A stretch of 17,214 nucleotides of DNA from Candidatus Micrarchaeota archaeon (GCA_027046625.1 JALTXX010000014.1:28129-45342); one strand, 5' to 3'; shown: positions 1,948 to 17,057, counted from the first letter of the stretch. The notes: generated from the sequence alone by a model not told the origin. Translations and numbers: made by a program.

Positions 1948-1977
1948 CCTTATATTAGGGTTCCCTCTTTTTATAAG
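1948..1977. promoter_or_regulatory. 30-bp divergent intergenic spacer with two TATA-like elements, CCTTATATTAGG and CTTTTTATAAGG. It is a candidate bidirectional promoter for the stomatin gene (minus) and the DUF373 gene (plus).
   Basis: A/T-rich TATA-like boxes lie about 22-27 bp from the two divergent start codons. This spacing matches archaeal TATA/BRE promoters producing leaderless mRNA. The call rests on sequence pattern only. Confidence 0.3.
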
Positions 1978-3150
1978 GTGGCACTGCTGGTATTGGTAGT
2001 AGACAGAGATGACGACCTTGGAGTAAAGACCGGTATAAAAGGGCCTATACTGGGTAGAGAAGAGGCTTTGAAGGCAGCTAATGCACTTCTATTATCTGAT
2101 CCTGAGGATTCGGATGGAAACACCATTTTTGCTGCTATAAAGATAGCTGATGAGCTGAAAAAGGAGGGAGAAATAGTTCAGATAGCAGTCGTTACTGGAG
2201 ATAGGGATGTTGGCATAAGGGCAGATAAAACTATTAGGGAACAGATGAAGGAGATTTTTTCCAAGTATCAGTTTGATGGGATTGTATTTGTAACAGATGG
2301 AGCTGAAGATGACCAAGTAATCCCCATCATATCCTCCTTTGCTCCCATAGTATCAAAAAAGACTGTAGTAGTTAGACAGGCAAAAGAGTTAGAAAAAACT
2401 TTCTACACCGTAAAAACAGCCCTTGAAGATCCGTCTTTCGCCCGTATGTTCCTTGGTATACCTGGTATCATCCTCCTTCTCTGGTTTTTGCTCCAGGAAA
2501 ATGCTCTAAGAATCATAATAGGTATCTTAAGCATCTACCTTATTATAAGGGGATTTGGGCTGGAAGATACAGTTATGAGCATGGTACAATCTTTTCTGAG
2601 AGTAGATCCTCACTCTATATCCCTTCCCTTTCACCTAGCGTCCTTTGCCCTTATCATAATAGGAGTATTTTTGTCTATCCACACATCTACCTATGGAAGT
2701 ATAGTAGAGGCTGCTAGGTTGCTGTTATTTTTCTTCTGGGGAGCCTTTACTGTATTCCTCTTAGGAAAATCTGCGGAAGCCATCTCCCAGAAAAGAGCAT
2801 ACAAAATTGGAGATTATCTTGCCATTGGAGGGGCTATTACAGCCGGATATGTAATTGGAGATGGGCTGCTAAACATTGTAAGTGGTGTTTTTGGTCCTCT
2901 TCATATGGTTTTCATCTTTCTTGTTACTGTAATGGCTTACTACATTGTTTACAAGATATCTACTGTAATAAAAAGGGCTCCATTACTTTCAGAGAAGATA
3001 AAGGGAAAACCTGTATATGACAGGGTTGGCTCCCTCTTAGGAAGGGTAAAGGGTGTTGACGAAGATGTTCTCATCATAGAAAGGGGTAGAAGATATACAA
3101 GAGTTCCACTATCCCAAGTAAGGATCGTGGAGGGGAGGATTGTGATATGA
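1978..3150 (+). CDS. DUF373-like archaeal membrane protein. It has an N-terminal soluble domain of about 150 aa, a central polytopic membrane domain of about 6-7 TM segments, and a C-terminal PRC-barrel-like domain of about 55 aa.
   Basis: The 390-aa ORF has a GTG start at 1978 and an ATG alternative at 2554. The N-terminal stretch VLVVDRDDDLGVKTGIKGPILGREEALKAAN...IVFVTDGAEDDQVIP matches my recollection of the archaeal-specific DUF373 (PF04123) family. The C-terminal stretch GKPVYDRVGSLLGRVKGVDEDVLIIERGRRYTRVPLSQVRIVEGRIVI fits the PRC-barrel pattern G-x-x-V-x-D-x-x-G-x-x-LG-x-V-x-D. The stop codon overlaps the next gene's ATG in an ATGA motif. Confidence 0.6.
   Translation: MALLVLVVDRDDDLGVKTGIKGPILGREEALKAANALLLSDPEDSDGNTIFAAIKIADELKKEGEIVQIAVVTGDRDVGIRADKTIREQMKEIFSKYQFDGIVFVTDGAEDDQVIPIISSFAPIVSKKTVVVRQAKELEKTFYTVKTALEDPSFARMFLGIPGIILLLWFLLQENALRIIIGILSIYLIIRGFGLEDTVMSMVQSFLRVDPHSISLPFHLASFALIIIGVFLSIHTSTYGSIVEAARLLLFFFWGAFTVFLLGKSAEAISQKRAYKIGDYLAIGGAITAGYVIGDGLLNIVSGVFGPLHMVFIFLVTVMAYYIVYKISTVIKRAPLLSEKIKGKPVYDRVGSLLGRVKGVDEDVLIIERGRRYTRVPLSQVRIVEGRIVI
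3129..3138 (+). promoter_or_regulatory. Shine-Dalgarno sequence GGAGGGGAGG, 8 nt upstream of the ATG at 3147. It marks the downstream gene as an internal operon gene translationally coupled to the DUF373 gene.
   Basis: The sequence is complementary to the archaeal 16S rRNA 3' end (CCUCC). The spacing and the ATGA stop/start overlap at 3147-3150 support the call. Confidence 0.5.
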
Positions 3151-3833
3151 TTATCTTTGAAGGAAGATTTATCCCGATATGGCTCGTATTCTCCACTATC
3201 CTTGCCTCTGTGATCTACGTATCCCTTCCCTCTATGGAGTATGAGGCTCCTAGTGAACTACCCATTCTTATTCTGTTATTCATAATACTGTTTACCCTCT
3301 TCCTTTTGTGGGTGCTTCATCGCTATCCCCTTCTTTTGAAAGGATTGGAATACTTCATTCTCTCCCTTCTAGGATTATACATAACCAATCATCCCTTGGG
3401 CAGCCTCCTCCCTTTCCTCCTCCTTCTACACAAAAACCTCACCTATTCTATTGCAGCCGCATTCTCCTCCGCACTTATTGCATCCATGATGGATGTAAAG
3501 GCTGTGCTGCTGCTCTACACGCTGCTCTCTATTTACGATCTCATTGCAGTCTTCGTCACAAAACACATGGTAGACCTTGTGCATAAGCTGGGATACAGAG
3601 CGGGTGGAGATAAACCACTCCTTGGAGGTGGGGATATCATTATTCCTCTATCCTTCTCACTAAAATTACTAGATTTTGGTATTATTCCCTTTTTGTTATC
3701 CTTCTTTGGACATCTAATAGCAATATTACTCCTTCTATGGTATGTAAAAAGAGAAAAAGTGGCACTTCCGGCACTTCCCTTCACATTAACAGCTCAGATT
3801 GTCCCACTACTGTTCCTCTTACCCTACCTTTAA
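3147..3833 (+). CDS. Minimal presenilin / signal-peptide-peptidase family homolog. It is a GxGD-type intramembrane aspartyl protease (archaeal PSH-like) with about 9 short TM segments.
   Basis: The 228-aa ORF carries the three family motifs in the canonical order. The YD motif is SIYDLIAVFVTKHM (nt 3534-3539); compare human PS1 VYDLVAVL. The GxGD motif is LLGGGDIIIPLSF (Asp codon 3633-3635); compare SPP GLGDIVIPG. The PAL motif is KVALPALPFT (nt 3768-3776); compare PS1 PALP. Type IV prepilin peptidases also have GxGD but lack YD upstream and PAL downstream. Confidence 0.65.
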   Translation: MIIFEGRFIPIWLVFSTILASVIYVSLPSMEYEAPSELPILILLFIILFTLFLLWVLHRYPLLLKGLEYFILSLLGLYITNHPLGSLLPFLLLLHKNLTYSIAAAFSSALIASMMDVKAVLLLYTLLSIYDLIAVFVTKHMVDLVHKLGYRAGGDKPLLGGGDIIIPLSFSLKLLDFGIIPFLLSFFGHLIAILLLLWYVKREKVALPALPFTLTAQIVPLLFLLPYL

Positions 3834-5703: not shown

Positions 5704-7350
5704 ATGGAGGTGAAACTTCCCAGTGGAAGAAAGTTTACAACCCCGTCCTTCTTTCCCGTATACAATCCTAACATTCCCATTATATCTCCAAACGAAATGA
5801 GATCTATGGGTGTGGAGACGCTTATTACAAACGCGTACATACTCTATAAAAAAGGGATAGAAAGGAGGGTGCATGAATTTCTGGGATTTGATGGGGTAGT
5901 TATGATGGATTCTGGAGCTTACCAATTGTGGGAGTATGGAGACCTTGATGTTACAAACGAAGACATCATAGAGTACCAGAACCGTATTCTACCCGATATA
6001 GGAACCTTTCTCGATACGGTGATGGAGTACGATATAGACAGAAAGTCTGCCGAAATTGGTGTAAAGGAAACCCTAACAAACGCAGAGGTTTGTAGAGCAA
6101 TAGGAGATGATAAAATAGCATGGATGGCCACAGTACAGGGAGCATTGCATAAAGATCTTGTTGAAATAGCTGCAGAAAGGCTTAGGGAATTGGATTTTCC
6201 ATACTATGCCATTGGCAGTCTTAAAAAGTCTACACAGAAGTGGATGTTTGAGCCTCAGATAGATCATAGCGTGTGGGCTCTGAATATTCTACCAAGGAGC
6301 AAGCCTGTTCATCTTTGGGGTGTTGGGCATCCTGCAGTATTTTCCATCTTTGTACTAATGGGATTTGATACCTTTGATTCCGCTTCCTACGCCCTTTATG
6401 CAAAAGATAACAGAGTTATGTTTCCTTGGGGCACAGAGAGACTGGAAAACATGGAAGAATTCCCCTATACATGCAAAGAGTGTGAAAAATTTACGGTTAA
6501 AGAGCTTCTATCTATGGATAAACACGAAAGGGTACGTATACTTGCAAAACACAATCTGTGGGTCATGATAAACGAGATAAAGGCTATTAGAGAGGCTCTT
6601 AGAGGTGAGTATCTCTTCGAGCTTGTACAGGAAAGGGTTAGATCACACCCAGGATTATTCAGGGCATTTGTAAAGCTGCTAAAAGAACATTATGGGTTTT
6701 TGGAGCAATATACCCCTTTCACAAAGAAACATGGGTTATTCCCAGTAGGCGAAGAATTTGTCTATAGACCAGAGATAAAAAGAGCTCTTGATAGAATAAA
6801 AATGTGGGAAAAAGATGCGAAGATTTTAGGTATAGAAATACCCTCCACCCTTTTCTATACATATCCTTTTGGGCACATTGTACACGAGGGGTCTCCTCCA
6901 TCCATCGATCCTACATCTCAAGCAAGAGATATCATAAAATATCAATGGGGTGTAGAGATAGAGCATTTGTACGTTACTGAGAGAAAAGGGAGGGCTAGAA
7001 TGGTATACAAAGATGAAACATACATTGGCATGATCAGACCGTCTGATGGGCTTTTTGTTCCCTCCATAGAGGGTGCCAAACTTTTGGTATCTCTTCTTCC
7101 CCATCCAAAAGGCAGAATAGTGGTAGATAGTGTTGCAGAAGGTCCCGTATCGGAGGGTAGGTCCGTATTTTCAAAGTTTGTTCTGGATGTAGACCCTGAT
7201 CTTAGACCAAACCAAGAGGTTATCGTAGTAAATGAAAGCGATGAAGTGCTAGCAGTGGGGAAGTTGGTGCTATCACCTAAAGAGATTACAGAGTTTTCCT
7301 CCCACGTAGCAGTAAAAGTCAGACATGGCTCAAAACTTTCACATTCTTAA
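5704..7350 (+). CDS. tgtA: Archaeosine tRNA-guanine transglycosylase (archaeal-type TGT) with a C-terminal PUA-like domain.
   Basis: The 548-aa size fits archaeal TGT. The TGT catalytic-region motif is VVMMDSGAYQLW. The zinc site is C-x-C-x2-C ... H (YTCKECEKF...H). The C-terminal roughly 80 aa look beta-rich and PUA-like (GKLVLSPKEITEFSSHVAVKVRHG). An SD-like GGTGCAGGAAG precedes the ATG, 32 bp after the aRF1 stop. Confidence 0.85.
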   Translation: MEVKLPSGRKFTTPSFFPVYNPNIPIISPNEMRSMGVETLITNAYILYKKGIERRVHEFLGFDGVVMMDSGAYQLWEYGDLDVTNEDIIEYQNRILPDIGTFLDTVMEYDIDRKSAEIGVKETLTNAEVCRAIGDDKIAWMATVQGALHKDLVEIAAERLRELDFPYYAIGSLKKSTQKWMFEPQIDHSVWALNILPRSKPVHLWGVGHPAVFSIFVLMGFDTFDSASYALYAKDNRVMFPWGTERLENMEEFPYTCKECEKFTVKELLSMDKHERVRILAKHNLWVMINEIKAIREALRGEYLFELVQERVRSHPGLFRAFVKLLKEHYGFLEQYTPFTKKHGLFPVGEEFVYRPEIKRALDRIKMWEKDAKILGIEIPSTLFYTYPFGHIVHEGSPPSIDPTSQARDIIKYQWGVEIEHLYVTERKGRARMVYKDETYIGMIRPSDGLFVPSIEGAKLLVSLLPHPKGRIVVDSVAEGPVSEGRSVFSKFVLDVDPDLRPNQEVIVVNESDEVLAVGKLVLSPKEITEFSSHVAVKVRHGSKLSHS

Positions 7351-7759
7351 GAATGATTTCCTTGCCCTTAACCTTATCCTCAATAGCAACCTTTGCATCC
7401 TCCTCTATCATCCTTATAATACCTTCCAAGGTGGTTATCCTGCCCCCAAAACCTTCCCTCATCTCCAGTACTATACCCATATCTGGAACTTCTATCCTTG
7501 CATATGGAGGGATGTATATCAGTGTATTTGATGTTTTTTCATCATAAACGAATCTTTTTTCTTCTAGTTTTTCATCGACCGAGAATACAGTTCTATCAAC
7601 AAATCCACAATTACTACACTTCTCCACAAACATTACGACACTACCTTCCAAATATTGCAAAGGATATAAGAACGCCTCTATCTTTGTTTCTGATCCGCAC
7701 ACAGGGCACTTCCCCTTTCCCTCATATAGTTTTTTCACCACATAGAGGCATATATCCAC
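7319..7759 (-). CDS. ZPR1-type zinc-finger protein (COG1779-like C4 zinc finger).
   Basis: The 146-aa ORF has CPVCG...x22...CSNCGF followed by a beta-rich region ending GFGGRITTLEGIIRMI, which matches the ZPR1 signature G.GG..TT.EGLL. The ORF opens with GTG at 7759. In-frame GTGs at 7741 or 7738 are better placed relative to the TATA-like box, so the true start is uncertain by 6-7 codons. Confidence 0.5.
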   Translation of the reverse strand: MDICLYVVKKLYEGKGKCPVCGSETKIEAFLYPLQYLEGSVVMFVEKCSNCGFVDRTVFSVDEKLEEKRFVYDEKTSNTLIYIPPYARIEVPDMGIVLEMREGFGGRITTLEGIIRMIEEDAKVAIEDKVKGKEIILKNVKVLSHV

Positions 7760-7794
7760 AGGGTTTTAAGTACTCTCCCAGCAAACTATGTGGG
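7760..7794. promoter_or_regulatory. 35-bp divergent spacer containing a near-palindromic TATA-like box GTTTTAAGTAC (7763-7773), about 27 bp upstream of the reverse gyrase ATG at 7795.
   Basis: It is the only A/T-rich element in the spacer. It is correctly spaced for leaderless rgy transcription and could also serve the divergent ZPR1 gene if that gene starts at GTG 7741/7738. Confidence 0.35.
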
Positions 7795-10700
7795 ATGAAG
7801 GCCCTCTTCACCAACCTCTGCCCCAACTGTAGAGGGGAAATAGACGACTCAAGACTGGAAAAACACCTTCCATGTAAAAGATGTTTGACCGATGAGGTGG
7901 AAGAAGGGAATTATAACACATTAGTAAAGACGGTGTTCTCTCATTTAAAGAATAAAGATGGGTATACACTCATATACAATACTGTAAATGGATTAGAGGA
8001 ATTCGAAGCATTCTTTAAGAAGTACACCGGTTATCCTTTGTGGAGTGCTCAGCGCTCATGGACAAAGCGCTTGCTACTAAACAAATCATTTTCTATTGTG
8101 GCGCCAACTGGTGTGGGAAAATCGCTCTTTGGAACCATGTATGCAGCCTTTTTAGCAGAAAAGGGCAAAAGATCTTACATTATCGTTCCTACCTCCACAC
8201 TGGTAAAACAAACACTGGATAGACTGTCCTTCAGGGAAGATGCGATTGGATTCTACTCTGCCATGACTCAGAAGAGAAAGGAGGAAATAATGGAACGTTT
8301 AAGGAGTGGGGATTTCCGTATTTTGGTTACCACCTCGCAGTTTCTGGCTCGTCGCTTTGAAGACATTCCTGTAAAGTTCGACTTCATCTTTGTAGATGAC
8401 GTAGATGCGCTCCTTAAATCCTCTAAGAATATAGATAGGGTGCTTTTATTACTAGGATTTCAAGAAAAGGACATAGAAACTGCCCTTTCCCTTATAAGGG
8501 AAAAGATACTCCTGGCTAGAGGAAAAGGGGACAGAAAAAAGGTTGAACACCTCGAAAAGATCCTAAAGAAAAGGAAAAAAGATATAAAAGGATCTCTTGT
8601 TGTTGCATCAGCTACAGGTAGATCTAGAGGGTTAAGATCAAGGTTGTTTAGAGAGTTGCTTGATTTTGAGGTGGGCTCCTCTAGGGCTCAGCTAAGGAAT
8701 GTGATTAACGTTTATACAAAAGAAGATGACATATCCTACTGGATAAGAAGGTTAGGTGGTGGAGGAATCATATTCGTATCCCACGGAGAAGACGAAGCAA
8801 AACGGATTACCGATGAGTTAAACAATATTGGAATAAGAGCTGCCTTCGCAGGGGGAGAAAAAGCCGTAAGTGCACTTGAGTCATTCGCAAAGGGGGAAGT
8901 TGATATACTTGTAGGATCTGCCTACTACTATGGAACCCTTGTAAGGGGCATCGACCTGCCGGAAAGAGTAAGGTATACCGTATTTGTGGGTGTCCCCAAG
9001 TTTAGGTTTGGTATGGACTTCGAAGGAATAAATCCTGGGAGAGCTGCCTTTCTTCTGGATATACTATATGACATAACATCTGATTCCTCTCTGAGAACCT
9101 TGGCAAACAGGCTTAGAAGATACGCAAGGGAGGAGGATCTGGAGGAGGCAAAGAAGATGCTAAGGGAGCTTATATCTAAGAGGGAAATCCTTGACAAGCT
9201 AAAGGAGCATCCAGATATAGTAATAGAAGAGGGAGATAAGTTATACATCATTATCCCCGATTACAAAACATATATCCAAGGCTCTGGAAGAGCCTCAAGA
9301 ATGTATGCAGGTGGAGTAACCACGGGGTTATCGCTGCTAATAGTGGACAATGAAAAGGTGTTTGAGCTGTTAAGACGTATTCTGTTCAACGTGTATGGAG
9401 AATCGTTCTCCCCTGTGAAAGAAGTAAACCTTGAGGATATCCTAAGAAAGATTGACGAAGAACGAAGGAGGATTAGGGAAAGATCCTGGAAGGATCCTGT
9501 AAGAACAATATTATTCGTGGTAGAATCCCCCAACAAAGCAAGAACAATAGCAAGATTCTTTGGGAGGCCGTCTGTGTACAGAATAGGAAGTATTAGAGGC
9601 TATGAGGTTACCACAGGAGATACAATTGTAAACGTGGTGGCAACGAGAGGGCACATGTTTGACCTGGTAACAGATAGAGGATTTCATGGTGTGCTGGTAA
9701 ACGATAGGATAATACCCGTTTATACTACCATCAAACGATGCAATCAATGTGGTACACAAACTACAGATAATGTGTGCCCAAAATGTGGAAGTACAGACCT
9801 AGAAGATGCCATAGAGAGGGTTAATGCGTTGAGATTGTTTGCTCTTGAGATGGATGAGGTCCTCATAGGTACAGATCCAGATACGGAAGGTGAAAAGATT
9901 GCATGGGATGTAATGCTAGCTATATCTCCCTATAATCCATCCATTAAAAGATCTGAGTTCCACGAGGTTACAAAGAACGCCCTCCTAAAGGCTATAAGGG
10001 AGCCCAGATCCTTTAATATAAACAGGGTAGATGCCCAGATTGTAAGAAGGGTTGAAGATCGGTGGATAGGTTTTGAGCTATCCCAAAAGCTGTGGACTGT
10101 TTTTGGCAACAGAGGGCTCTCCGCTGGAAGGGTTCAAACACCTGTACTTGGATGGATCATTGAGAGATATATGGAGCACAAGAAACAGGTAGCGGTGTTC
10201 CTTTCTGTAGATACAGAGGTTGGCAGATTCGTATTTGAAACACCTTTCAGAAATATAAACCAAGCAAAAGCTTATGGTAACAGTGGTATTATACGGATAG
10301 AACTATTGGAAAGTAGAGAGGAGATCAAACACCCACCTCCACCCTTTACTACAGACACCCTTATAAGGGATGGGGGTAATGTTCTACGTCTCGGGGCCAA
10401 GGAGATTATGGATCTTGCCCAAGATCTCTTCGAGGCAGGTCTTATAACATACCATAGAACCGATTCTACTCACGTATCCTCTACCGGAATAGCCATTGCA
10501 AAGGAGTATATATCCTCCAAATGGGGAGAAGATTACTTTAGGGGCAGATCATGGGGCAGAGAAGGAGCTCACGAATGTATAAGGCCTACACGGTCCCTTG
10601 ATACAGAGACGTTAATTAGATACATAAGGGAGGGAGAAATAGTGGTGGAGGGTATCAGCAAGCAGCACCTAAGGCTATACGATCTTATCTTTAGGAGATT

Positions 10701-11220
10701 TATGGAAAGCCAGATGAAGGAGGCGAAGGTAATTGTTTCAAAGTACAGAGTTACACTAGAGGCACTATCCACAGAAGAAGAGAGGATATCAGATATAGTG
10801 GAAAGGGGGTGGATGGTTCTGGAGAACATCGAACCATCACCCCTAAAGGAGGGAGCGTATAAACCTCTTTCTGTTTTATCCTACAAGGCATCTAAGATAC
10901 CACTATATACCCAAAGTGATGTAGTGGCCCTCATGAAGGAGAGGGGCATAGGCAGGCCGTCTACATACGCCACCATCCTACAAAAGCTACTAGAAAGAAG
11001 ATACATAATAGAAACTAAAAGTAAGCGCAGATTGTATCCTACAAGAAGGGGTATAGAAGTGTTTAACTACCTCAACTCGAAGTTCTACGATCTTGTTTCC
11101 GAGGAAAGAACAAAGATGTTAGAAATGCTCATGGAGGAGATTGAGGAAGGAAGGTTACATTATATGGATGTACTTAAGGAACTCTACAGGGAGATAGTAT
11201 CAACAAGGGGGATTATATAG
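7795..11220 (+). CDS. rgy: Reverse gyrase: N-terminal zinc finger plus SF2 helicase-like domain fused to a type IA topoisomerase domain.
   Basis: I place the start at ATG 7795 (MKALFTNLCPNCRGE...CKRCL, the N-terminal zinc finger), giving 1141 aa. Walker A is APTGVGKS and helicase motif II is FVDDVD. A second zinc finger, CNQCG...CPKCG, lies at the helicase/topoisomerase junction. The topo IA active-site region GLITYHRTDSTHVS keeps the catalytic Tyr, and the Toprim acidic motif GTDPDTEGE is present. No intein is evident. The ORF track's upstream extension (7498-7794) overlaps the ZPR1 gene and carries no conserved residues. Confidence 0.95.
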   Translation: MKALFTNLCPNCRGEIDDSRLEKHLPCKRCLTDEVEEGNYNTLVKTVFSHLKNKDGYTLIYNTVNGLEEFEAFFKKYTGYPLWSAQRSWTKRLLLNKSFSIVAPTGVGKSLFGTMYAAFLAEKGKRSYIIVPTSTLVKQTLDRLSFREDAIGFYSAMTQKRKEEIMERLRSGDFRILVTTSQFLARRFEDIPVKFDFIFVDDVDALLKSSKNIDRVLLLLGFQEKDIETALSLIREKILLARGKGDRKKVEHLEKILKKRKKDIKGSLVVASATGRSRGLRSRLFRELLDFEVGSSRAQLRNVINVYTKEDDISYWIRRLGGGGIIFVSHGEDEAKRITDELNNIGIRAAFAGGEKAVSALESFAKGEVDILVGSAYYYGTLVRGIDLPERVRYTVFVGVPKFRFGMDFEGINPGRAAFLLDILYDITSDSSLRTLANRLRRYAREEDLEEAKKMLRELISKREILDKLKEHPDIVIEEGDKLYIIIPDYKTYIQGSGRASRMYAGGVTTGLSLLIVDNEKVFELLRRILFNVYGESFSPVKEVNLEDILRKIDEERRRIRERSWKDPVRTILFVVESPNKARTIARFFGRPSVYRIGSIRGYEVTTGDTIVNVVATRGHMFDLVTDRGFHGVLVNDRIIPVYTTIKRCNQCGTQTTDNVCPKCGSTDLEDAIERVNALRLFALEMDEVLIGTDPDTEGEKIAWDVMLAISPYNPSIKRSEFHEVTKNALLKAIREPRSFNINRVDAQIVRRVEDRWIGFELSQKLWTVFGNRGLSAGRVQTPVLGWIIERYMEHKKQVAVFLSVDTEVGRFVFETPFRNINQAKAYGNSGIIRIELLESREEIKHPPPPFTTDTLIRDGGNVLRLGAKEIMDLAQDLFEAGLITYHRTDSTHVSSTGIAIAKEYISSKWGEDYFRGRSWGREGAHECIRPTRSLDTETLIRYIREGEIVVEGISKQHLRLYDLIFRRFMESQMKEAKVIVSKYRVTLEALSTEEERISDIVERGWMVLENIEPSPLKEGAYKPLSVLSYKASKIPLYTQSDVVALMKERGIGRPSTYATILQKLLERRYIIETKSKRRLYPTRRGIEVFNYLNSKFYDLVSEERTKMLEMLMEEIEEGRLHYMDVLKELYREIVSTRGII

Positions 11221-11415: not shown

Positions 11416-11682
11416 ATGATGGGAGATGTACTGCTGGTCTATCGCATACATCCTAAGGAGGTGGAAGATCTTCCTAAAATAAGGGAAAAGATAGGAACAT
11501 CTATTCCCAACGTGGCCAAACTAAAGAGCATGGAGGAAGAACCTCTTGCCTTTGGATACAAGATTCTTAAGCTAAGTGTAATTGTGCCCGATGAGGAGGG
11601 AGCACAGGAAAGGGTAGAAGAGGCTTTAAGGGGTATTGAAGAGATCGATTCCTTCGAGGTGGAACTCTCAACCCTTATCTAG
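11416..11682 (+). CDS. ef1b: Translation elongation factor aEF-1beta.
   Basis: The 88-aa ORF begins MMGDVLLVYRIHPKEVEDLPKIREKI...AFGYKILKLSVIVPDEEG. The size and the acidic guanine-nucleotide-exchange core are typical of archaeal EF-1beta. It conventionally follows the Zn-ribbon gene. The true start may be the second ATG at 11419. Confidence 0.85.
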   Translation: MMGDVLLVYRIHPKEVEDLPKIREKIGTSIPNVAKLKSMEEEPLAFGYKILKLSVIVPDEEGAQERVEEALRGIEEIDSFEVELSTLI

Positions 11683-12162
11683 TTTCTCCCTTATCCTTTC
11701 TACAAACTCTTTTATCCTTGTCCAGTGAGACCCTTTCCAGTATACTTGTCCACAGCTTGTGCATATCCAAAACTCCTCCCTGCTCATATATACACCCATG
11801 GGTACCTGCCCTTTTACCTCAGATCGATTAGCTTTTCTTAGGATTCCGTTGCACCTTGGACATCTCTCAAGGGATGGTGCATCCTTTAATTCTATTGTAC
11901 CCTTCCTTACAAGAAAGGCAAGCTGTTCCTCCACATCATTACCCTCCACTAAAAGAGTAGACACACCCTCCTTCCTTGCACGTTCGTATAATTCTCTGTC
12001 CTTCGTTAAAAGAATCCTATCCTCATATTCTGCTATATCCAAAAGGTAGTCATCATCCAGTATGGATAAATCAGATGCTGATACTGTATCATATCCCAAT
12101 ATTCTCAACCATTCTGCCAGCTTTTCCAACATGGCATCCACAAGGAACCTCATCGATTCCAC
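11668..12162 (-). CDS. Mut7-C domain protein (DUF82; PIN-like RNase fold with a C-terminal zinc ribbon).
   Basis: The 164-aa ORF has an N-terminus MRFLVDAMLEKLAEWLRILGYDT that matches the Mut7-C/DUF82 signature MLGrLarwLRllGyD. The C-terminus carries CPRCNG...x32...CTSCG. The gene converges on ef1b with a 15-bp overlap. Confidence 0.65.
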   Translation of the reverse strand: MESMRFLVDAMLEKLAEWLRILGYDTVSASDLSILDDDYLLDIAEYEDRILLTKDRELYERARKEGVSTLLVEGNDVEEQLAFLVRKGTIELKDAPSLERCPRCNGILRKANRSEVKGQVPMGVYMSREEFWICTSCGQVYWKGSHWTRIKEFVERIREKLDKG

Positions 12163-12210
12163 GCTCCACCTCCATCAAAATAAATGGTGTACGTTTAGAA
12201 TATAACCTTG
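12163..12210. promoter_or_regulatory. 48-bp divergent spacer between the Mut7-C gene (minus) and rad50 (plus). It contains TCAAAATAAATGG (about 27 bp upstream of the rad50 ATG) and TTTAGAATATAA.
   Basis: The A/T-rich TATA-like boxes are spaced as expected for leaderless starts. No SD precedes rad50. Confidence 0.3.
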
Positions 12211-14772
12211 ATGATCCGTGAAGTCCACATTAAAAACTGGAAGTCCCATGGAGAAATAAATGGAAATTACGGCAGTTCTCTGTCATTTGAAAGGGGACTG
12301 AACGTTATATATGGTGTTAACGGTAGCGGGAAAAGTTCTATAGCCGAAGCCATACACTTCGCTCTTTTTGGGAAAAGGGGAGACGATGTTATCAGAAGAG
12401 GTGCTAAGAAGGCGGAGGTAAAAGTAGTTCTTGAAACGGATAATGTATACATTATAAAGAGGAGTTTGGGTCGAGGGGGGAGCGATGACGTTGTCGTAAT
12501 GACTGAGGATGGTAAGCTTCTTTCTGTTTCTAAGCAAAGGGATGCTAATAAGACGGTAGAGGACATCTTAGGCGTTAATGCAAAGCTGTTTGAGAAGGCT
12601 GTATACGGGGAACAAAACAAGATGTTGGAGTTCTATGAAAGTTCTCCCAAGGAGAGGGCCAAGATGATAGACGACATTATGGGTATGAAAGAGTTTTTTG
12701 AGGCAAAGGAGGTAATAACTAGAATATATAACAGGCTTTTGGATGAGATACGCCAGAAGGGTGATAAATTAACAGACTACAAAAAGGAAGAGGAGGAACT
12801 AAAGACATCCATTTCCAAAGAGGAGGAGAAGGTGTCCTCGCTTAGGGAAAGAGTAATGGAATTAACTTCTATGGTTGAATCGTTATCCTCCTCAGAGGAA
12901 AAGCTAAAGAAGGAGCTCTCAGAACTTGAAGTAAATCTTAGATCCCTTGAAGAGAAGAGAGAAAAGTATATCACACTATCTGCCCAGGTAAAACGGTTAA
13001 AGGAAGAGATAAAGTGGCCTGACGCGTCTGAAAAGGATGAAGATATGCTTCAGGAACTTCTCTCTAAGATGGAGAAGAAAAAGTCTCTGGAGGGAACTAT
13101 AAACCACCTAAAAAGCAGGAGAGAAAGGATTCTCAAAGAATTGGAAAGCATCCCAGAGGCAGAAGAGGTTGATATGGAGAGATTAAAAAAAGAATTGGAA
13201 GAAAAGGAGTATATACTAAGAGAGATAGAGGATAAACATAATGGTATAAGGAAGGAGCTTTATTCTTTGGAGATAAACATCTCTTCCCTGAAGGAGGAGC
13301 TAAAGCACCTACTAATGAAGGAAGAAGAGTATAAGCGACTGTCCTCTGAAGTTAATGAGCTTCCTTTCCTGAAAGATAGGCTGGAAAGCCTCACAGAAAA
13401 CCTTGAAGAGTTAAGATCGGTTGAGGAGGAGTTAAAAAGTCGTATATCGGTACTTAAGCAGTCTCACCTACTGAAAGAAGGCCGGTGCCCCCTCTGTGGA
13501 AGGAGTATCGACAAAGTACATGCAGAGGAGATAATAGCACATAGAGAAGAGGAGCTGAAGAAGTTACAAAATGAGTTGGAAGCTGTCCTCGCAAAAAGAA
13601 AGGTTATGGAGAGGGAATACAACGATGTCCATCGAAGAGTTTTGGCCTTAGAGGTTAAGCAGGACAGATTAAAGGATTTAAAAGACCAGCTGTCAAATAA
13701 AGAGGACATAAAAAGAAAAATAGAAGAAAGTGATAGAAGATTGAAAGAATTGGGGGAAATGCTCTCACGTATCGAAGAGGAAAAGAGCCGTATATCGTCC
13801 TTGGTAGAAGCATTAAGAAAACGGCTTTCCGACGCCATAAACACACTCAATATTATAAACAGGAAACGCTCCCTTCAGCAAGAGCTGCTAGAGGTTGAGA
13901 AAGAAATAGAGAAAACGGAACATTCATTAAAAGAGTTGGGAGACATAGACGCACAAACAATAGAGAGATACAGGGAAAGGGTGGAGAGTTACAGGAAAAA
14001 GCTTCAGCTAGAAGCTCTAGAGAAACAATTATCATCCCTACAATGGGATGAAAGAGAATATAACAATATGAAAAGTAGGGTGGAAGCGGTTAGAAAGGAA
14101 TTTTTAGAGTTGGTTTCCAAGAAGAAGGAGCTGGAAGGAACCCTAAAGGGCCTTCAGGAAACATTAAGAGAAAAGGAAAAATTGCTAGAGGAGATGAAAA
14201 GACGGTTAGCCATTTTGGAAGATGAGTTAAGAGATTATGAAAGGCTAAAAACTATAAGGGACAGTCTTGAACTTGTAAGAAGGGCGTGGGAAGAAAGTAT
14301 AAAAGAGGTTAGGAAGAGGAGGGTGGACCTCATTAATAAAACCGTAAAACTGGTGTGGAATGCCGTCTACAGATCTCAGTATTCCGACTATAAGGACATA
14401 TCTTTCTCCATGGAAAGTGCACGGTCTGGATATACCTACTCCCTCAAGGTAAAAGGGGATGAGTGGTACGATGTAGATGTGTTGTCTGGTGGAGAACGTA
14501 TGCTAGCCTTACTAGCTCTTCGGATAGCCATGGCTTATCTTCTCAGCAAAAAGAGCGGTTTCCTCATCCTTGACGAACCTACCCACAACCTTGACGAAAA
14601 CATTAGTAGAAAGTTGGCTGAATTTCTTCACAACACAACCCAAGAGGGTCTCTTTGATCAAATCATTCTTATTACCCATGATCCTGTATTCTCTGAGTAT
14701 GCAGACGTTGTATATCGTATGGAGAGAGCCAAAACCGGCAACGATCCCACCACAGTTGTTAGAGAACGTTAG
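12211..14772 (+). CDS. rad50: DNA double-strand-break repair ATPase Rad50 (SMC-like ABC ATPase with a central zinc hook).
   Basis: I place the start at ATG 12211, giving 853 aa; the track begins at TTG 12208. Walker A is GVNGSGKSS. Q-loop region is present. A long heptad-rich E/K/L coiled coil follows. The CPLCG zinc hook lies exactly at the midpoint (nt 13486-13500, residues 426-430). The ABC signature LSGGE (VLSGGERMLALLAL) is present. Walker B/D-loop is FLILDEPTHNLD and the H-loop is LITHD. Confidence 0.85.
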   Translation: MIREVHIKNWKSHGEINGNYGSSLSFERGLNVIYGVNGSGKSSIAEAIHFALFGKRGDDVIRRGAKKAEVKVVLETDNVYIIKRSLGRGGSDDVVVMTEDGKLLSVSKQRDANKTVEDILGVNAKLFEKAVYGEQNKMLEFYESSPKERAKMIDDIMGMKEFFEAKEVITRIYNRLLDEIRQKGDKLTDYKKEEEELKTSISKEEEKVSSLRERVMELTSMVESLSSSEEKLKKELSELEVNLRSLEEKREKYITLSAQVKRLKEEIKWPDASEKDEDMLQELLSKMEKKKSLEGTINHLKSRRERILKELESIPEAEEVDMERLKKELEEKEYILREIEDKHNGIRKELYSLEINISSLKEELKHLLMKEEEYKRLSSEVNELPFLKDRLESLTENLEELRSVEEELKSRISVLKQSHLLKEGRCPLCGRSIDKVHAEEIIAHREEELKKLQNELEAVLAKRKVMEREYNDVHRRVLALEVKQDRLKDLKDQLSNKEDIKRKIEESDRRLKELGEMLSRIEEEKSRISSLVEALRKRLSDAINTLNIINRKRSLQQELLEVEKEIEKTEHSLKELGDIDAQTIERYRERVESYRKKLQLEALEKQLSSLQWDEREYNNMKSRVEAVRKEFLELVSKKKELEGTLKGLQETLREKEKLLEEMKRRLAILEDELRDYERLKTIRDSLELVRRAWEESIKEVRKRRVDLINKTVKLVWNAVYRSQYSDYKDISFSMESARSGYTYSLKVKGDEWYDVDVLSGGERMLALLALRIAMAYLLSKKSGFLILDEPTHNLDENISRKLAEFLHNTTQEGLFDQIILITHDPVFSEYADVVYRMERAKTGNDPTTVVRER

Positions 14773-16370
14773 GCTACTCTCTCTTCCGGTCCAAATCCAT
14801 ATGAGAAGTCTGTGGACGGACCCATGCCTATATAATCAAGGTACATCCTAACCGTAAAGTAGTTTTGGTAGTCTAGCACTGCACTACCAAACACTGTATA
14901 CTTTTGCTGGGTGGGCAGTATAACACCAAATCTAAGGTTTGAGTTGGAGGTAGTAATATACTCCTTTACATCGCTGGCTGTTCTATATCTACAATTCTTG
15001 GTATCTACGTAGTATCTATAGCACACTGCCCTCGTAAGCTCTTCTCCAGATGAGCTGTTTGTTATATTGAAGACCTCGCTAGTTACAAGGTCTCTAGGAA
15101 AGCTCCCACCTATACCCATTACTACATTACACACATCCATACTCCACCAATCTATCTTGACGTTTCTTATCCTGCATGTGGATGAGCTATATGAAGCCCC
15201 CTTCGCTCCATATCCTATACTCTTATTTGCAAAGAGGGCAGTAGCTTTGTAAGTATGGATGTACGTACCGTAGCTTCTGACAGTTCTATAATCTCCACGT
15301 CCGCTCTCTACCCTTCCGGAGTATACAATGAGGGGATTTCTTATGGGAACGGTTGGCTTCATAATGTAATATCTCCACGTCGGATACGTGTTGGTAAACT
15401 GAACTCCATTGTATACATAACTGTAAGTATCCCTGCTTCTATACAACGTAACATCAAAGTATAACCTTCCGTTTCTAATATAATAGGAGGCACTCCCTTC
15501 CCCAAGCTCCTCTATATTGGATTCGTTGAGTTCCAAGGTGAAACCATTAATGGTTCTTCCGCTGAAATCCTCATACACATCAAAAACATTTTTTGGGTTT
15601 GATATGGAGGTAGCGGATGGATTTCCATAGTATACGTAGAAGAAGGTGGTACCTCCCTTCTTTAAGGTTGATCTGAGAAATATTCTCGTGTTTGAGAGAC
15701 ACGTTCCAGGTAATATCCACATGGGTACTTCCTGTCCTCTTTCGTCGAGGACTCTTAGATCTCCACAGTCGCTCCGTATCTTCCTCTCATTATAGAGGGC
15801 TCTAGTGTTAAGGTCGATGTAGAACACTACATCTCCACCTTTATTACTATAAACCAACAAGGCCTTCCTGTATTTCCACCCAGATACGGCAGTTTTATAA
15901 ACTGTGGCAGCAGAGCAGCTGCCAACTTCCCTAGACCCTATATGAACCACAGCACAAATGTTGTACTCCCCTTCATTATTCACAGTGTAGCTTCTACTTA
16001 ACGTTTGGGGAGCGATGGTACCGTTCTCTATGAGCTGATCATTAACGTATATGGAGTAGTTTACCTCCTCTCCATCAGAAAGAATAACAACATTGTAATC
16101 TATTGAAACAGGGAAGGATTCGGTAGAAACGTATTCTGGAGATTCCACTATTACATAGATATAACTAAATAACATGCTTTTCGGTATGGTAAAGTTTATA
16201 TCTACCGTATAATCTCTTAAAACATCAAAATTTACCTCTGTAGTACTAGGAGTCGACACTTCTTGAGATATAGCTTCTAAGGTATTGAGAAGGGCGGTAC
16301 CTGTCACAGTTACCAGTATGATGGATGCTCCCAATAAGAGGAGGTACTCCACATTGGTTTGACCGTACAC
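14769..16370 (-). CDS. Type-IV-pilin-like surface protein (class III signal peptide followed by an N-terminal hydrophobic helix) with a large extracellular domain containing a DUF2341-like, ConA-like region.
   Basis: The 533-aa ORF has a GTG start directly after an in-frame TAG. Its N-terminus (M/V)YG|QTNVEYLLLLGASIILVTVTGTALL fits the prepilin pattern: Gly at -1, Gln at +1, Glu at +5, then a hydrophobic helix of about 20 aa. The remainder is S/T/Y/N-rich and beta-like. The segment DCGDLRVLDERGQEVPMWILPG...TTFFYVYYGNPSATS resembles the DUF2341 core (DG.DiRF.d.dG..L.yeiE.W...vWVkvp...ttiymYYGN). Confidence 0.5.
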   Translation of the reverse strand: MYGQTNVEYLLLLGASIILVTVTGTALLNTLEAISQEVSTPSTTEVNFDVLRDYTVDINFTIPKSMLFSYIYVIVESPEYVSTESFPVSIDYNVVILSDGEEVNYSIYVNDQLIENGTIAPQTLSRSYTVNNEGEYNICAVVHIGSREVGSCSAATVYKTAVSGWKYRKALLVYSNKGGDVVFYIDLNTRALYNERKIRSDCGDLRVLDERGQEVPMWILPGTCLSNTRIFLRSTLKKGGTTFFYVYYGNPSATSISNPKNVFDVYEDFSGRTINGFTLELNESNIEELGEGSASYYIRNGRLYFDVTLYRSRDTYSYVYNGVQFTNTYPTWRYYIMKPTVPIRNPLIVYSGRVESGRGDYRTVRSYGTYIHTYKATALFANKSIGYGAKGASYSSSTCRIRNVKIDWWSMDVCNVVMGIGGSFPRDLVTSEVFNITNSSSGEELTRAVCYRYYVDTKNCRYRTASDVKEYITTSNSNLRFGVILPTQQKYTVFGSAVLDYQNYFTVRMYLDYIGMGPSTDFSYGFGPEERVA

Positions 16371-16403
16371 CTATTAAGTATCCTTCCACCATTTAAAAAT
16401 GCG
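16371..16403. promoter_or_regulatory. 33-bp divergent spacer between the pilin-like gene and the E1-like gene. It contains TATTAAGTA and ATTTAAAAAT.
   Basis: The A/T-rich TATA-like elements are the only support. Assignment to either gene is uncertain. Confidence 0.25.
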
Positions 16404-17057
16404 ATGATGAAGAGGTATTACTCTGAAGGGGTGATGAATAGGCACGCAGCTGAGCTATACCAAAGGAGCAGACACGCATGGTGGAAGCTAAGAGATAAGA
16501 GATTACTTATAGCTGGGGCTGGGGGGTTAGGTACCTTTGTACTAGCTAATTTACTTGGATCGGGTATAGGAGAAATTGTTGTAGTTGACAGAGACAAAGT
16601 AGAACCTCATAACCTCAACAGACAGTTCTTCTATGGGTTAGAAGACGTTGGACGGTGGAAGGTTGAGATTCTCAAGGAAAGGTTATCCTATAGACATGAA
16701 AACATCTCCTTTAAGAGAACTGATATAGAGGAGGTAGATATAACCCACTTTCACGTGGTAGTAGACTGTTTAGATAGGTGGAAGGAGAAATCTGCCCTCA
16801 TAGATAGGGCTATAGATAGTGATATTCCCATTGTTAGTATTTCGGCAGGAAGAGGAAAGGGGATGGTTACATCCCCTAGGAAAAGGATTCCCTTCACTCC
16901 AAAGGATGAATGTATTGTATCCACTCCGGAACTTTCAGTGGCAGCCGGTATAGGGTCTAATGAAGTTATAAATACATTAACTGGCAATCCAAGACTGGTT
17001 AATAAGTTACTCGTATTTGATTTAAACACCTACGACTTTCAACTAGTCGAATACTAA
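16404..17057 (+). CDS. ThiF/MoeB/HesA-family E1-like adenylyltransferase (ubiquitin-activating-enzyme fold). It is a candidate activator of small ubiquitin-like sulfur-carrier or modifier proteins.
   Basis: The Rossmann dinucleotide motif LLIAGAGGLGTFVLANLLGSGIGEIVVVDRDKVEPHNLNRQFFY fits the E1 family pattern GxGxxG ... D.D.VE.SNLNRQ. The RYYSEG region near the N-terminus corresponds to the conserved RYSRQ. I place the start at ATG 16404 (MMKRYY...), giving 217 aa. The track's TTG at 16359 would overlap the divergent gene's start. No CxxC zinc pairs are present. Confidence 0.7.
   Translation: MMKRYYSEGVMNRHAAELYQRSRHAWWKLRDKRLLIAGAGGLGTFVLANLLGSGIGEIVVVDRDKVEPHNLNRQFFYGLEDVGRWKVEILKERLSYRHENISFKRTDIEEVDITHFHVVVDCLDRWKEKSALIDRAIDSDIPIVSISAGRGKGMVTSPRKRIPFTPKDECIVSTPELSVAAGIGSNEVINTLTGNPRLVNKLLVFDLNTYDFQLVEY

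What the first reader, a model, noticed from the sequence alone, without database searches (positions are those of the whole stretch)
14769..16370. 533-aa pilin-like protein with a 3-residue leader and a DUF2341-like domain
The N-terminus (V/M)YG-QTNVEYLLLLGASIILVTVTG has the prepilin hallmarks: Gly at -1, Gln at +1 and Glu at +5, followed by a hydrophobic helix of about 20 aa. This is the archaeal EppA-type pilin pattern. The leader peptide, however, would be only two or three residues and lacks the usual Lys/Arg at -2/-3. The start codon is GTG and abuts an in-frame TAG, so the leader cannot be longer. The mature protein is large and carries a segment resembling DUF2341 (ConA-like lectin/glucanase superfamily; ...DCGDLRVLDERGQEV...FFYVYYGNPSA). 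Candidate functions are a minor or tip pilin, an adhesin, or a carbohydrate-binding surface protein.
Basis: partly seen in the sequence, partly recalled or inferred. Interest (0 to 1): 0.6.

Follow-up and report, generated by a model that had tools for sequence, protein, structure and literature searches.

The report
Pilin-like archaeal adhesin, very short leader
This gene from an uncultured heat-loving archaeon encodes a large surface protein that pairs a pilus-subunit-like N-terminal helix with a probable sugar-binding module, which makes it a fairly ordinary "modular pilin" whose only oddity is a three-residue leader with no positive charge.

Summary
The ORF is real. It lies on the minus strand (16370..14769, 533 aa). 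Its GTG start directly follows in-frame TAA-TAG, so the leader is Met-Tyr-Gly. A TATA-like box sits 21-30 nt upstream, the same spacing as at about 16 other genes of this contig. This indicates a leaderless mRNA and supports the GTG as the true start.

The N-terminus, G|QTNVEYLLLL plus about 20 hydrophobic residues, fits the Gln+1/Glu+5 (EppA/Epd-type) class III signal. It scores below the PF04021 cutoff only because Lys/Arg is missing at -2.

A metagenome scan shows that obligatory three-residue M-[K/R]-G leaders are common in this class. One Met-Phe-Gly variant sits in a pilin gene cluster syntenic with an Epd-like pilus operon. Leader length is therefore normal, and only Tyr at -2 is unusual.

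Pilin-type N-termini joined to DUF2341 and lectin-like modules recur in archaea and bacteria. I file this as a new member of a known kind, a modular pilin-like adhesin. Cleavage, the peptidase and the pilus machinery could not be tested. No pilus genes lie within about 27 kb.

The parts
14769..16370 (-). Complete CDS, 533 aa, GTG start, TAA stop. Its stop overlaps the TAG stop of the convergent Rad50-like gene.
   Evidence: The identical protein is called in NCBI MAG GCA_015521515.1, contig WANZ01000027.1.
16391..16400 (-). TATA-like box ATTTTTAAAT, 21-30 nt upstream of the GTG. This is the putative promoter of a leaderless mRNA.
   Evidence: The same A/T box at about -32..-21 precedes about 16 of 25 genes of the contig, including five other GTG starts. 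That the mRNA is leaderless is inferred, not measured.
16371..16376 (-). In-frame TAA TAG directly before the start codon. On the other strand these bases are part of the TATTAAGT box of the divergent ThiF gene.
16362..16370 (-). Three-codon leader Met-Tyr-Gly (GTG TAC GGT). The putative prepilin-peptidase site follows Gly3.
   Evidence: PF04021 profile positions 2-4 (K, G, Q) align with residues 2-4 in bona fide M-[K/R]-G-Q proteins.
16263..16361 (-). Putative mature N-terminus, residues 4-36: Gln+1, Glu+5, Tyr+6, then a hydrophobic helix (pilin alpha1-like).
   Evidence: PF04021 is the top hit, below its cutoff. AF2 predicts a helix at 7-36 with pLDDT about 88. The hydropathy maximum is at residues 9-28.
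15891..16259 (-). Residues 38-160: a Ser/Thr-rich linker (STPSTT) and a beta-rich region with no detectable homologues. It could be the pilin globular module.
   Evidence: No homologue covers it. AF2 pLDDT is below 50 both with and without an alignment. The function is inferred only from its position.
15546..15884 (-). DUF2341 beta-sandwich domain, residues 163-275 (the Pfam match covers 201-275).
   Evidence: Pfam E=1e-13. HMMER finds 2356 library hits, and all of the best 150 listed centre on this region. AF2 pLDDT is above 90. Invariant residues are D204, R206, Y248, G249, N250 and A253.
14772..15545 (-). Residues 276-533: probable ConA-like (lectin/glucanase-fold) jelly-roll. It ends at the degenerate tail of the conserved module (YLDY...GPEE).

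Best explanation
The gene encodes a modular, pilin-like surface adhesin of a hyperthermophilic archaeon that is probably DPANN (Iainarchaeota-related).

Shown:
- The architecture is a three-residue leader, a Gln+1/Glu+5 hydrophobic helix, an orphan beta-rich region, a DUF2341 domain, and a probable ConA-like jelly-roll at fold level, from a model of which about half is low-confidence.
- The promoter geometry is that of a leaderless, GTG-initiated mRNA.

Inferred:
1. The hydrophobic helix inserts in the membrane with the N-terminus inside and the C-terminus outside.
2. An EppA-like, Gln+1-specific prepilin peptidase cuts after Gly3.
3. The helix, with Glu5, is taken up by an Epd/Tad-like type IV pilus machine encoded elsewhere in the genome.
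4. The bulky DUF2341-lectin module can fit only at or near the filament tip. There it binds a glycan on a surface or on a host cell.

If the protein is not assembled into a filament, the same helix would simply hold the lectin module at the cell surface.
For: Motif and start codon:
- The sequence is M-Y-G|Q-T-N-V-E-Y-L plus about 20 uncharged hydrophobic residues.
- PF04021 is the best Pfam match to the N-terminus. Changing MY to MKK in silico raises the score from 18.4 to 23.8 bits, which reaches the cutoff. Starting at Val7 instead lowers it to 14.8.
- The TATA-like box at -30..-21 matches the contig-wide leaderless geometry, which includes five other GTG starts.

Natural precedent for the leader:
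- 24 metagenomic ORFs of this motif class have an in-frame stop upstream and no alternative start, so their leader must be three residues. In 20 of them the -2 residue is K or R.
- Two such proteins pass the PF04021 cutoff at 27.9 and 28.1 bits.
- L118 carries M-F-G|QAAFEYL. It scores 18.2 bits, the same as the target.
- The L118 gene lies in a pilin gene cluster syntenic with L046. L046 also has a T2SSE/PilB3-like ATPase and two T2SSF (TadC-like) genes.

Recurring architecture:
- P0125 has Pilin_N, two DUF2341 domains and an L-type lectin domain. P0129 has N_methyl and DUF2341 in 500 aa. P0151 has QAAMEYL and DUF2341 in 501 aa. P0029 has MKA|VSEIIG and two DUF2341 domains.

Fold and composition:
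- Eight Cys residues fall in four closely spaced pairs, there are seven N-x-S/T sequons, and an STPSTT linker follows the helix. These fit an extracellular protein (inference).

Literature:
- DUF2341 proteins in Epd pilus loci were proposed to be tip adhesins (PMC4858521).
- Transposon hits in the DUF2341 gene of the M. maripaludis epd locus were recovered in a screen for transformation defects (PMC10133366).
- PilC of S. sanguinis is a tip-located modular pilin with a ConA-like lectin module (PMC9934059).
- PibD cleaves engineered three- and four-residue leaders (PMC4187195).
Against: - There is no charged residue at -2 or -3. This is described as critical for recognition by archaeal prepilin peptidases (PMC4371748). 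The only positive charge on the cytoplasmic side would be the free alpha-amino group.
- PF04021 scores below its cutoff.
- No prepilin peptidase, pilus ATPase, TadC or other pilin gene lies in the roughly 27 kb readable around the gene. The rest of the MAG could not be read.
- Residues 38-160 could not be modelled, so a pilin globular fold is not shown.
- About half of the jelly-roll region is low-confidence, and Foldseek found nothing significant.
- The gene has no full-length homologue among about 15 billion proteins. It is absent from the syntenic position in the nearest MAG, L002. Conservation therefore cannot be used as evidence.
- Lectin activity is inferred from fold only.
Confidence: 0.55

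Rival explanations
1. The protein is a surface lectin or adhesin held by an uncleaved signal anchor. The N-terminal helix is a permanent membrane anchor. It is never processed by a prepilin peptidase and never enters a filament. The Gln/Glu motif is a relic of pilin ancestry.
For: Tyr replaces Lys/Arg at -2, and a charged residue there is reported as critical. PF04021 is below its cutoff. The gene stands alone among housekeeping genes with no pilus genes nearby. It is a lineage-specific orphan.
Against: The exact G|Q-xxx-E-Y-L register is retained. This pattern is strongly associated with genuine class III proteins (74 of 121 pattern matches). An M-F-G variant persists in a pilin gene cluster syntenic with a pilus operon. 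Stand-alone class III genes outside the main locus are usual in archaea (PMC4858521). A plain anchor would normally carry basic residues on the cytoplasmic side, and this one has none either.
Confidence: 0.3
2. The start is assigned wrongly. Translation begins at the internal GTG (Val7, 16352), or the 5' end is damaged, giving M-EYLLLL..., an ordinary Sec signal or anchor. The G-Q motif would then be untranslated.
For: GTG codons occur at both codon 1 and codon 7. A transcription start a few bases downstream would bypass the first GTG. No transcript data exist.
Against: The TATA-like box sits at -30..-21 from the first GTG, the same spacing as at about 16 other genes. From Val7 the spacing would be about -48..-39, and no Shine-Dalgarno sequence would be left. 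The M-EYLL form scores lower on PF04021 (14.8 against 18.4 bits). It would start with an acidic residue and no basic n-region, which is atypical for Sec signals. G-Q-xxx-E immediately before the helix is very unlikely by chance (Gln makes up 1.7% of the protein).
Confidence: 0.07
3. The C-terminal jelly-roll is a catalytic glycanase or lyase (GH16- or PL7-like) and not a lectin. The protein would then be a surface-tethered polysaccharide-degrading enzyme.
Against: There is no ExDxxE or ExDxE GH16 catalytic motif. Sequence identity to these enzymes is 6-13%. No glycoside-hydrolase Pfam or NCBIfam family is detected. Non-catalytic lectins, CBMs and phage receptor-binding domains score equally well. 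In homologues the same position holds Laminin_G_3 or L-type lectin domains.
Confidence: 0.08

Closest known systems
Large DUF2341 proteins of archaeal clade-1 (Epd-type) type IV pilus loci (arCOG03508 and relatives; e.g. M. maripaludis MMJJ_08210)
   Same: Both are archaeal, large and carry DUF2341. They were proposed to be pilus-tip adhesins (PMC4858521). In M. maripaludis, transposon hits in this gene came up in a screen for transformation defects (PMC10133366). [quoted passage not shown]
   Different: Those genes lie inside the epd locus next to eppA, the ATPase and TadC genes. This gene stands alone between ThiF and a Rad50-like gene. Outside DUF2341 no sequence similarity to any protein was found. 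I could not obtain the arCOG03508 sequences for a direct comparison.
EppA-processed Epd pilins / Pfam PF04021 (Class_IIIsignal, former DUF361)
   Same: Both have Gly -1, Gln +1 and Glu +5 followed by about 20 hydrophobic residues. PF04021 is the best hit at the N-terminus.
   Different: Characterised substrates have K/R-G/A-Q sites (KGQV, KGQI, RAQI). This protein has Y-G-Q and scores below the cutoff. Most Epd pilins are small, whereas this one is 533 aa with extra modules.
Streptococcus sanguinis PilC, a modular type IV pilin with a ConA-like lectin module
   Same: Both combine a class III signal and pilin helix with a grafted ConA-like lectin/glucanase-fold module. PilC is about 53 kDa, comparable to the 533-aa target. 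It sits at the pilus tip and binds glycans (PMC9934059; PMC8179133).
   Different: PilC is bacterial, and no sequence homology to it was detected. Those papers do not report DUF2341 in PilC, and its partner pilin PilA has an 8-residue leader. The similarity is in mode of action, not family membership.
Environmental pilin-N-terminus + DUF2341 + lectin-like proteins (P0125, P0129, P0151, P0029 from the protein library)
   Same: The domain order and, for P0129 and P0151, the size (about 500 aa) are the same. DUF2341 identity is 36-39% (P0029, P0151); the P0129 and P0125 alignments, which extend beyond DUF2341, are 27-31% identical. P0151 has a Gln/Glu-type N-terminus (QAAMEYL). P0029 has a three-residue MKA leader.
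   Different: Similarity is confined to DUF2341 and, for P0129 and P0125, short flanking stretches. The N-terminal domains are unrelated. None of these proteins has been characterised.
Metagenomic 134-aa class III pilin family with obligatory three-residue leaders (L046, L095, L117, L135; the L118 variant has M-F-G)
   Same: Both have a three-residue leader ending in Gly, then Q-xxx-E-Y-L and a hydrophobic helix. L118 has an aromatic uncharged residue at -2 and the same PF04021 score as the target. L046 lies in an operon with a PilB3-like ATPase and two TadC-like genes.
   Different: These are small, probably major pilins without DUF2341. They are unrelated to the target beyond the signal.
PilY1/PilC tip adhesins of diderm bacterial type IV pili
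   Same: Both are proposed tip-located adhesins. PMC4858521 states that PilY adhesins contain DUF2341.
   Different: PilY1 is not a pilin. It has no class III helix and is held by minor pilins. It is also much larger. I did not test the DUF2341 claim for PilY1.

Membership tests
DUF2341 (Pfam PF10102) | Profile HMM score at or above the gathering cutoff (23.4 bits) | tested here: met
   52 bits, E=1e-13, residues 201-275 covering profile positions 1-77 of 84. There are 2356 HMMER hits, and all of the best 150 listed centre on this region. The family-invariant residues D204, R206, Y248, G249 and N250 are present.
Class III signal peptide, Gln+1 type (Pfam PF04021; EppA substrates) | Profile HMM score at or above the gathering cutoff (23.7 bits) | tested here: not met
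   14.3 bits for the full protein and 18.4 bits for the first 60 aa. The MY-to-MKK change in silico gives 23.8 bits. A natural M-F-G homologue of proteins that pass the cutoff scores 18.2.
Class III signal peptide, Gln+1 type (Pfam PF04021; EppA substrates) | Small residue (G/A/S) at -1 | tested here: met
   Gly3. The criterion comes from PMC4371748.
Class III signal peptide, Gln+1 type (Pfam PF04021; EppA substrates) | Charged residue at -2 (or a basic leader) | tested here: not met
   Tyr2. There is no K/R/D/E in the leader. The criterion comes from PMC4371748. Among 24 natural obligatory three-residue leaders, 20 have K/R at -2 and one credible case has Phe.
Class III signal peptide, Gln+1 type (Pfam PF04021; EppA substrates) | Gln at +1 and Glu at +5 | tested here: met
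   Gln4 and Glu8. The criterion comes from PMC4371748.
Class III signal peptide, Gln+1 type (Pfam PF04021; EppA substrates) | The processing site precedes an uncharged hydrophobic domain of about 20 residues | tested here: met
   Residues 9-30 are uncharged, and the Kyte-Doolittle maximum is at 10-28. AF2 predicts a helix at 7-36.
Class III signal peptide, Gln+1 type (Pfam PF04021; EppA substrates) | Actual cleavage by a prepilin peptidase, and a matching peptidase in the genome | not testable with these tools
   Only about 27 kb of the MAG could be read, and it holds no A24-type peptidase. The presenilin/SPP-like GxGD protease at 3147-3833 belongs to a different family.
Modular type IV pilin (sensu Raynaud et al. 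2021) | An N-terminal class III signal and pilin module followed by a functional module not specific to pili | tested here: inconclusive
   The extra modules are present: DUF2341, confirmed by Pfam, and a probable ConA-like domain supported at fold level only. The signal is sub-threshold. The pilin globular module (residues 38-160) could not be modelled.
ConA-like lectin/glucanase fold (C-terminal domain) | Jelly-roll beta-sandwich superposable on known members | tested here: inconclusive
GH16 glycoside hydrolases | Catalytic ExDxxE (or ExDxE) motif | tested here: not met
   The regex search found none.
Epd-locus DUF2341 adhesins (arCOG03508-like) | Encoded within a type IV pilus locus (ATPase, TadC, EppA, minor pilins) | tested here: not met
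   The neighbours are ThiF, a Rad50-like ATPase, a Mut7-C RNase, EF-1beta, reverse gyrase, a cation-efflux protein and arginase.

The most novel reading that the evidence does not exclude
Met-Tyr-Gly is a working class III leader: three residues, no charged side chain, translated from a leaderless GTG mRNA, and still cleaved before Gln. This would mean that the prepilin peptidase of this DPANN-related lineage recognises only G|Q...E plus the helix. The free alpha-amino group of Met1 would then supply the cytoplasmic positive charge. This would set a natural minimum for a type IV pilin signal. The alternative is that the protein enters a filament without being cleaved.
Probability: 0.3. Interest if true: 0.4.

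Novelty: new member of a known kind. Interest (0 to 1): 0.3.

Why it matters
DPANN-type archaea often live attached to other cells, and how they attach is largely unknown. A pilin-anchored lectin module is a concrete, testable candidate for glycan-mediated attachment in a hyperthermophilic member of this group. The gene also gives a natural test substrate for how little leader an archaeal prepilin peptidase needs. PibD has been shown to cleave engineered three-residue leaders. The metagenome survey here suggests that three-residue M-[K/R]-G leaders are a common natural form, and that an aromatic residue at -2 is tolerated at least occasionally. Beyond that, the protein fits an architecture already described: DUF2341 adhesins of Epd pili and modular pilins.

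Tried and rejected
- Full-length homologues: the word-index search found only the protein itself and three DUF2341 hits. The exhaustive HMMER search gave only DUF2341-centred hits among the best 150 listed.
- Fragment searches with residues 1-162 and 262-533 returned nothing, not even the protein itself. I treat them as uninformative.
- NCBIfam gave no hit. The PDB sequence search gave none.
- Foldseek against the PDB gave nothing at E<=1e-3. The afdb50 library was unavailable.
- Single-sequence AF2 of residues 1-165 was useless, with pLDDT 38.7.
- A genome-contig scan with the protein found no relative. A second scan with the ThiF neighbour gave a related Iainarchaeota MAG, but tRNA genes occupy the target's position there.
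The contig ends just left of the window.
- Paper searches for the assembly and run accessions found nothing.
- A DUF2341 HMM built here found no DUF2341 gene near the metagenomic three-residue-leader pilins.
- The bacterial sigma-70 promoter and terminator scan does not apply to an archaeon.
- N-glycosylation sequons are not enriched: 7 observed against 6.1 +/- 2.1 in shuffles.
- L134 (MYGQTDVEYLL...) looked like a near-identical N-terminus but is a low-complexity LTY repeat. I rejected it as chance.
- I considered reading the upstream ATG at 16392 as the start after a frameshift. I rejected it because the frame differs and the promoter geometry fits the GTG.

Full report
**Observation.** The window has a 533-codon ORF at 14769..16370, on the minus strand. 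Read 5'->3' on that strand, the sequence runs ...TAA TAG GTG TAC GGT CAA ACC AAT GTG GAG TAC CTC.... The GTG at 16370 directly follows two in-frame stops, so the product starts M-Y-G-Q-T-N-V-E-Y-LLLLGASIILVTVTGTALL.
- Tyr is at -2, and no charged residue occurs apart from Glu8 until Glu32.
- The only strongly hydrophobic segment is residues about 9-28.
- The identical protein is called in NCBI MAG GCA_015521515.1, contig WANZ01000027.1.
- A six-frame motif scan of the window and of the 21.6-kb locus L001 found this kind of N-terminus only here.

**Is the start codon right?** The divergent ThiF gene starts at 16404. Its MMKRYY N-terminus is conserved in the homologue on L002, which leaves a 33-nt intergenic region. 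On the target's strand, ATTTTTAAAT lies at -30..-21 from the GTG.
- I tabulated 25 gene starts in the window and L001. About 16 have an A/T-only box at roughly -35..-21.
- Six of these have GTG starts: MCM, RIO1, the ZPR1-like gene, Band7, DUF373 and the target.
- Genes internal to operons lack the box and instead have GGTGAT-like Shine-Dalgarno sequences.
- This is the usual archaeal pattern of leaderless first genes (general knowledge). It argues that transcription starts at or next to the GTG and that the three-residue leader is real.
- The Band7/DUF373 pair uses the same compact divergent layout: 30 nt with two boxes.
- This step is inferred from sequence geometry. No transcript data exist.

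**Domains.** Pfam finds DUF2341 at residues 201-275 (52 bits, cutoff 23.4). Class_IIIsignal (PF04021) matches residues 3-24 at 14.3 bits, below its cutoff of 23.7. NCBIfam and the PDB sequence search find nothing.
- Exhaustive HMMER against 1.84 billion cluster representatives gives 2356 hits. All of the best 150 listed match only query residues about 115-433, centred on DUF2341. Residues 1-160 and about 340-490 are therefore orphan sequence, as far as the listed hits show.
- Alignment with 28 homologues shows that residues 163-533 form one module. DUF2341 comes first. Then a domain opens with the family's FDDFxG...W motif (VYEDFSGRT in the target). It closes at the family's Y-D-W..RKYxSPEPTxxxGxEE tail (YLDYIGMGPSTDFSYGFGPEERVA-stop in the target).
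- In homologues this second domain is Laminin_G_3 or an L-type lectin.
- AF2 with that alignment (mean pLDDT 58.8) gives a helix at 7-36 (pLDDT about 88) and a confident beta-sandwich at 160-275 (above 90). Confidence is moderate for 276-360 and 490-533 and low for 38-159 and 360-489.
- Foldseek against the PDB gives nothing significant.
- No GH16 catalytic motif is present.
- The ConA-like label therefore probably belongs to the domain after DUF2341, and only at fold level.

**The signal.** The review PMC4371748 lists the criteria: G/A/S at -1, a charged residue at -2 that is critical in archaea, and, for EppA substrates, a conserved Gln +1 (required by EppA) and Glu +5.
- The target meets every criterion except the -2 charge.
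- The native first 60 residues score 18.4 bits on PF04021. Replacing MY with MKK gives 23.8, which reaches the cutoff. Starting at Val7 gives 14.8. The shortfall therefore lies at the basic position or positions.
- Of 121 matches, 74 are followed by a 20-residue uncharged hydrophobic stretch.
- Of these, 24 have an in-frame stop upstream and no alternative start, so their leader must be three residues. The -2 residue is K in 12, R in 8, Y in 2, T in 1 and F in 1.
- The Y and T cases are a 30-aa ORF, a low-complexity repeat and a 40-aa TTG ORF. I discount all three.
- L118 is credible. Its product starts M-F-G|QAAFEYLLLF and is a clear homologue of a 134-aa family whose other members start M-[K/R]-G.
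- Family member L046 and a 521-aa M-K-G protein on L131 pass the PF04021 cutoff at 27.9 and 28.1 bits. L118 scores 18.2, the same as the target.
- L046 and L118 share a syntenic gene cluster: the pilin, further pilin-like proteins, and proteins of 617-881 aa beginning M-K-G plus a hydrophobic stretch. L046 continues into a T2SSE/PilB3-like ATPase and two T2SSF genes, which is an Epd-like arrangement.
- A three-residue leader is therefore a common natural form of this signal class, and an aromatic residue at -2 occurs at least once in a pilus-related gene cluster.
- PibD cleaves engineered three- and four-residue leaders, whereas FlaK needs five (PMC4187195).

**Precedent for the architecture.** Several of the best 150 DUF2341 hits have pilin-type N-termini.
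- P0125 has Pilin_N above its cutoff, two DUF2341 domains and an L-type lectin domain.
- P0129 has N_methyl above its cutoff and DUF2341, in 500 aa.
- P0028 and P0035 have bacterial-type N-termini.
- P0029 starts MKA|VSEIIG, and P0039 has KG|VSPIIA.
- P0151 has ...QAAMEYLMTYGWAIL in 501 aa, with the same domain order as the target.
- Makarova et al. (PMC4858521) found large DUF2341 proteins in Epd-type pilus loci of Methanococci, Methanobacteria and Thermococci and proposed them as tip adhesins. They also note that many class III genes stand alone outside the main locus.
- In M. maripaludis, transposon insertions in the DUF2341 gene of the epd locus were recovered in a screen for transformation defects (PMC10133366).
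- In S. sanguinis, PilC is a tip-located modular pilin whose ConA-like lectin module binds glycans (PMC9934059). Modular pilins are widespread (PMC8179133).

**Context and organism.** The neighbours are housekeeping genes:
- ThiF lies divergent to the target, and a Rad50-like ATPase with a zinc hook lies convergent, with overlapping stop codons.
- Further out are a Mut7-C RNase, EF-1beta, reverse gyrase, archaeosine TGT, aRF1, an amino-acid kinase, a presenilin/SPP-like protease, DUF373, Band7 and SpoIIM.
- On the other side are a cation-efflux gene, arginase, CarS, ribosomal proteins and MCM.

No pilus ATPase, TadC, prepilin peptidase or second pilin lies in the roughly 27 kb that could be read. 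Reverse gyrase points to a hyperthermophile (general knowledge).
- ThiF, the cation-efflux gene and arginase are 53-60% identical to, and syntenic with, a MAG named Candidatus Iainarchaeum archaeon (L002).
- That taxon belongs to the DPANN kingdom Nanobdellati.
- In L002, tRNA genes occupy the target's position, so the gene is lineage-specific.
- The taxonomic placement rests on three genes only.

**Mechanism, verdict and score.** The architecture, start codon and fold-level similarity are shown. Membrane insertion, cleavage after Gly3 by an EppA-like peptidase, uptake by an Epd/Tad-like machine encoded elsewhere, tip location forced by the bulky module, and glycan binding are all inferred.
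- The main rival is that the helix is an uncleaved anchor holding the same lectin module at the cell surface. The missing -2 charge and the isolated locus favour it.
- A misassigned start and a catalytic (GH16- or PL7-like) C-terminal domain are less likely.
- I classify this as a new member of a known kind, an archaeal modular pilin-like DUF2341/lectin adhesin, with a minor variant (Tyr at -2). Interest is about 0.3.

Noticed in passing
window 3147-3833 (+): A 228-aa polytopic membrane protein carries YD (SIYDLIAV), GGGD and PAL (LPALPF) motifs. It has a sub-threshold Pfam hit to SPP/presenilin (PF06550, 20.9 bits against a cutoff of 23.9). It is probably an archaeal presenilin/signal-peptide-peptidase homologue. 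That is a GxGD protease, but not a prepilin peptidase.
   Followed up: partly
window 1948-1977 and 16371-16403: Two divergent gene pairs (Band7/DUF373 and target/ThiF) are separated by only 30 and 33 nt. Each spacer holds two TATA-like boxes, each next to the other gene's start codon. About 16 of 25 genes have an A/T box at about -32..-21, and six of these start with GTG. This suggests widespread leaderless, often GTG-initiated, mRNAs in this lineage.
   Followed up: partly
window 14769-14772: The stop codons of the target (TAA, minus strand) and of the convergent Rad50-like gene (TAG, plus strand) overlap. No intergenic terminator is left between them.
   Followed up: no
window 12208-14772 (+): An 854-aa Rad50/SMC-like ATPase with a zinc hook (CPLC) has no adjacent Mre11 gene. 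It lies divergent to a Mut7-C RNase gene at 11668-12162 (-).
   Followed up: no
window ~7795-11220 (+); 7498-11220 listed as a TTG ORF: A reverse gyrase gene (zf_Rg, helicase, Toprim and Topoisom_bac domains) indicates a hyperthermophile. The long TTG ORF overextends the real start and overlaps the ZPR1-like zinc-ribbon gene at 7319-7759 (-).
   Followed up: partly
L046 396-9726 (-) and L118 1-4942 (-): Low-GC (33-35%) metagenome contigs carry an Epd-like pilus operon. It holds a 134-aa G|QAAFEYL pilin with an obligatory three-residue leader, a 136-aa pilin-like protein, and proteins of 617-881 aa and 340-402 aa beginning M-K-G plus a hydrophobic stretch. In L046 a PilB3-like ATPase and two TadC-like genes follow. 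The L118 pilin has M-F-G instead of M-[K/R]-G.
   Followed up: partly
L031, L066, L070, L099, L100, L136, L146 and others (metagenome loci): A very conserved ...G|QGATEYLVLLAVVLIVALVSVALLGFFPGMASDAQIT family lies within ORFs that stay open for about 20-170 codons upstream. Its -2 residue varies and is often uncharged (P, L, V, Q, H). In this class of signal the -2 charge does not seem to be strictly conserved.
   Followed up: no
L002 1-260: In the related Candidatus Iainarchaeum MAG (55% GC, against 42% here), tRNA-like sequences lie upstream of ThiF where the target gene lies in the window. The gene of unknown function (307 aa) next to ThiF in L001 is also absent there. I identified the tRNA-like sequences by eye and did not run ARAGORN on L002.
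   Followed up: partly
window 14769-16370 (-), protein residues 139-460: Eight cysteines fall in four closely spaced pairs (139/152, 202/224, 399/414, 450/460), and Tyr makes up 9% of the protein. Cys202 lies in the family's conserved SDCGD motif. This suggests disulfide-stabilised extracellular domains.
   Followed up: no
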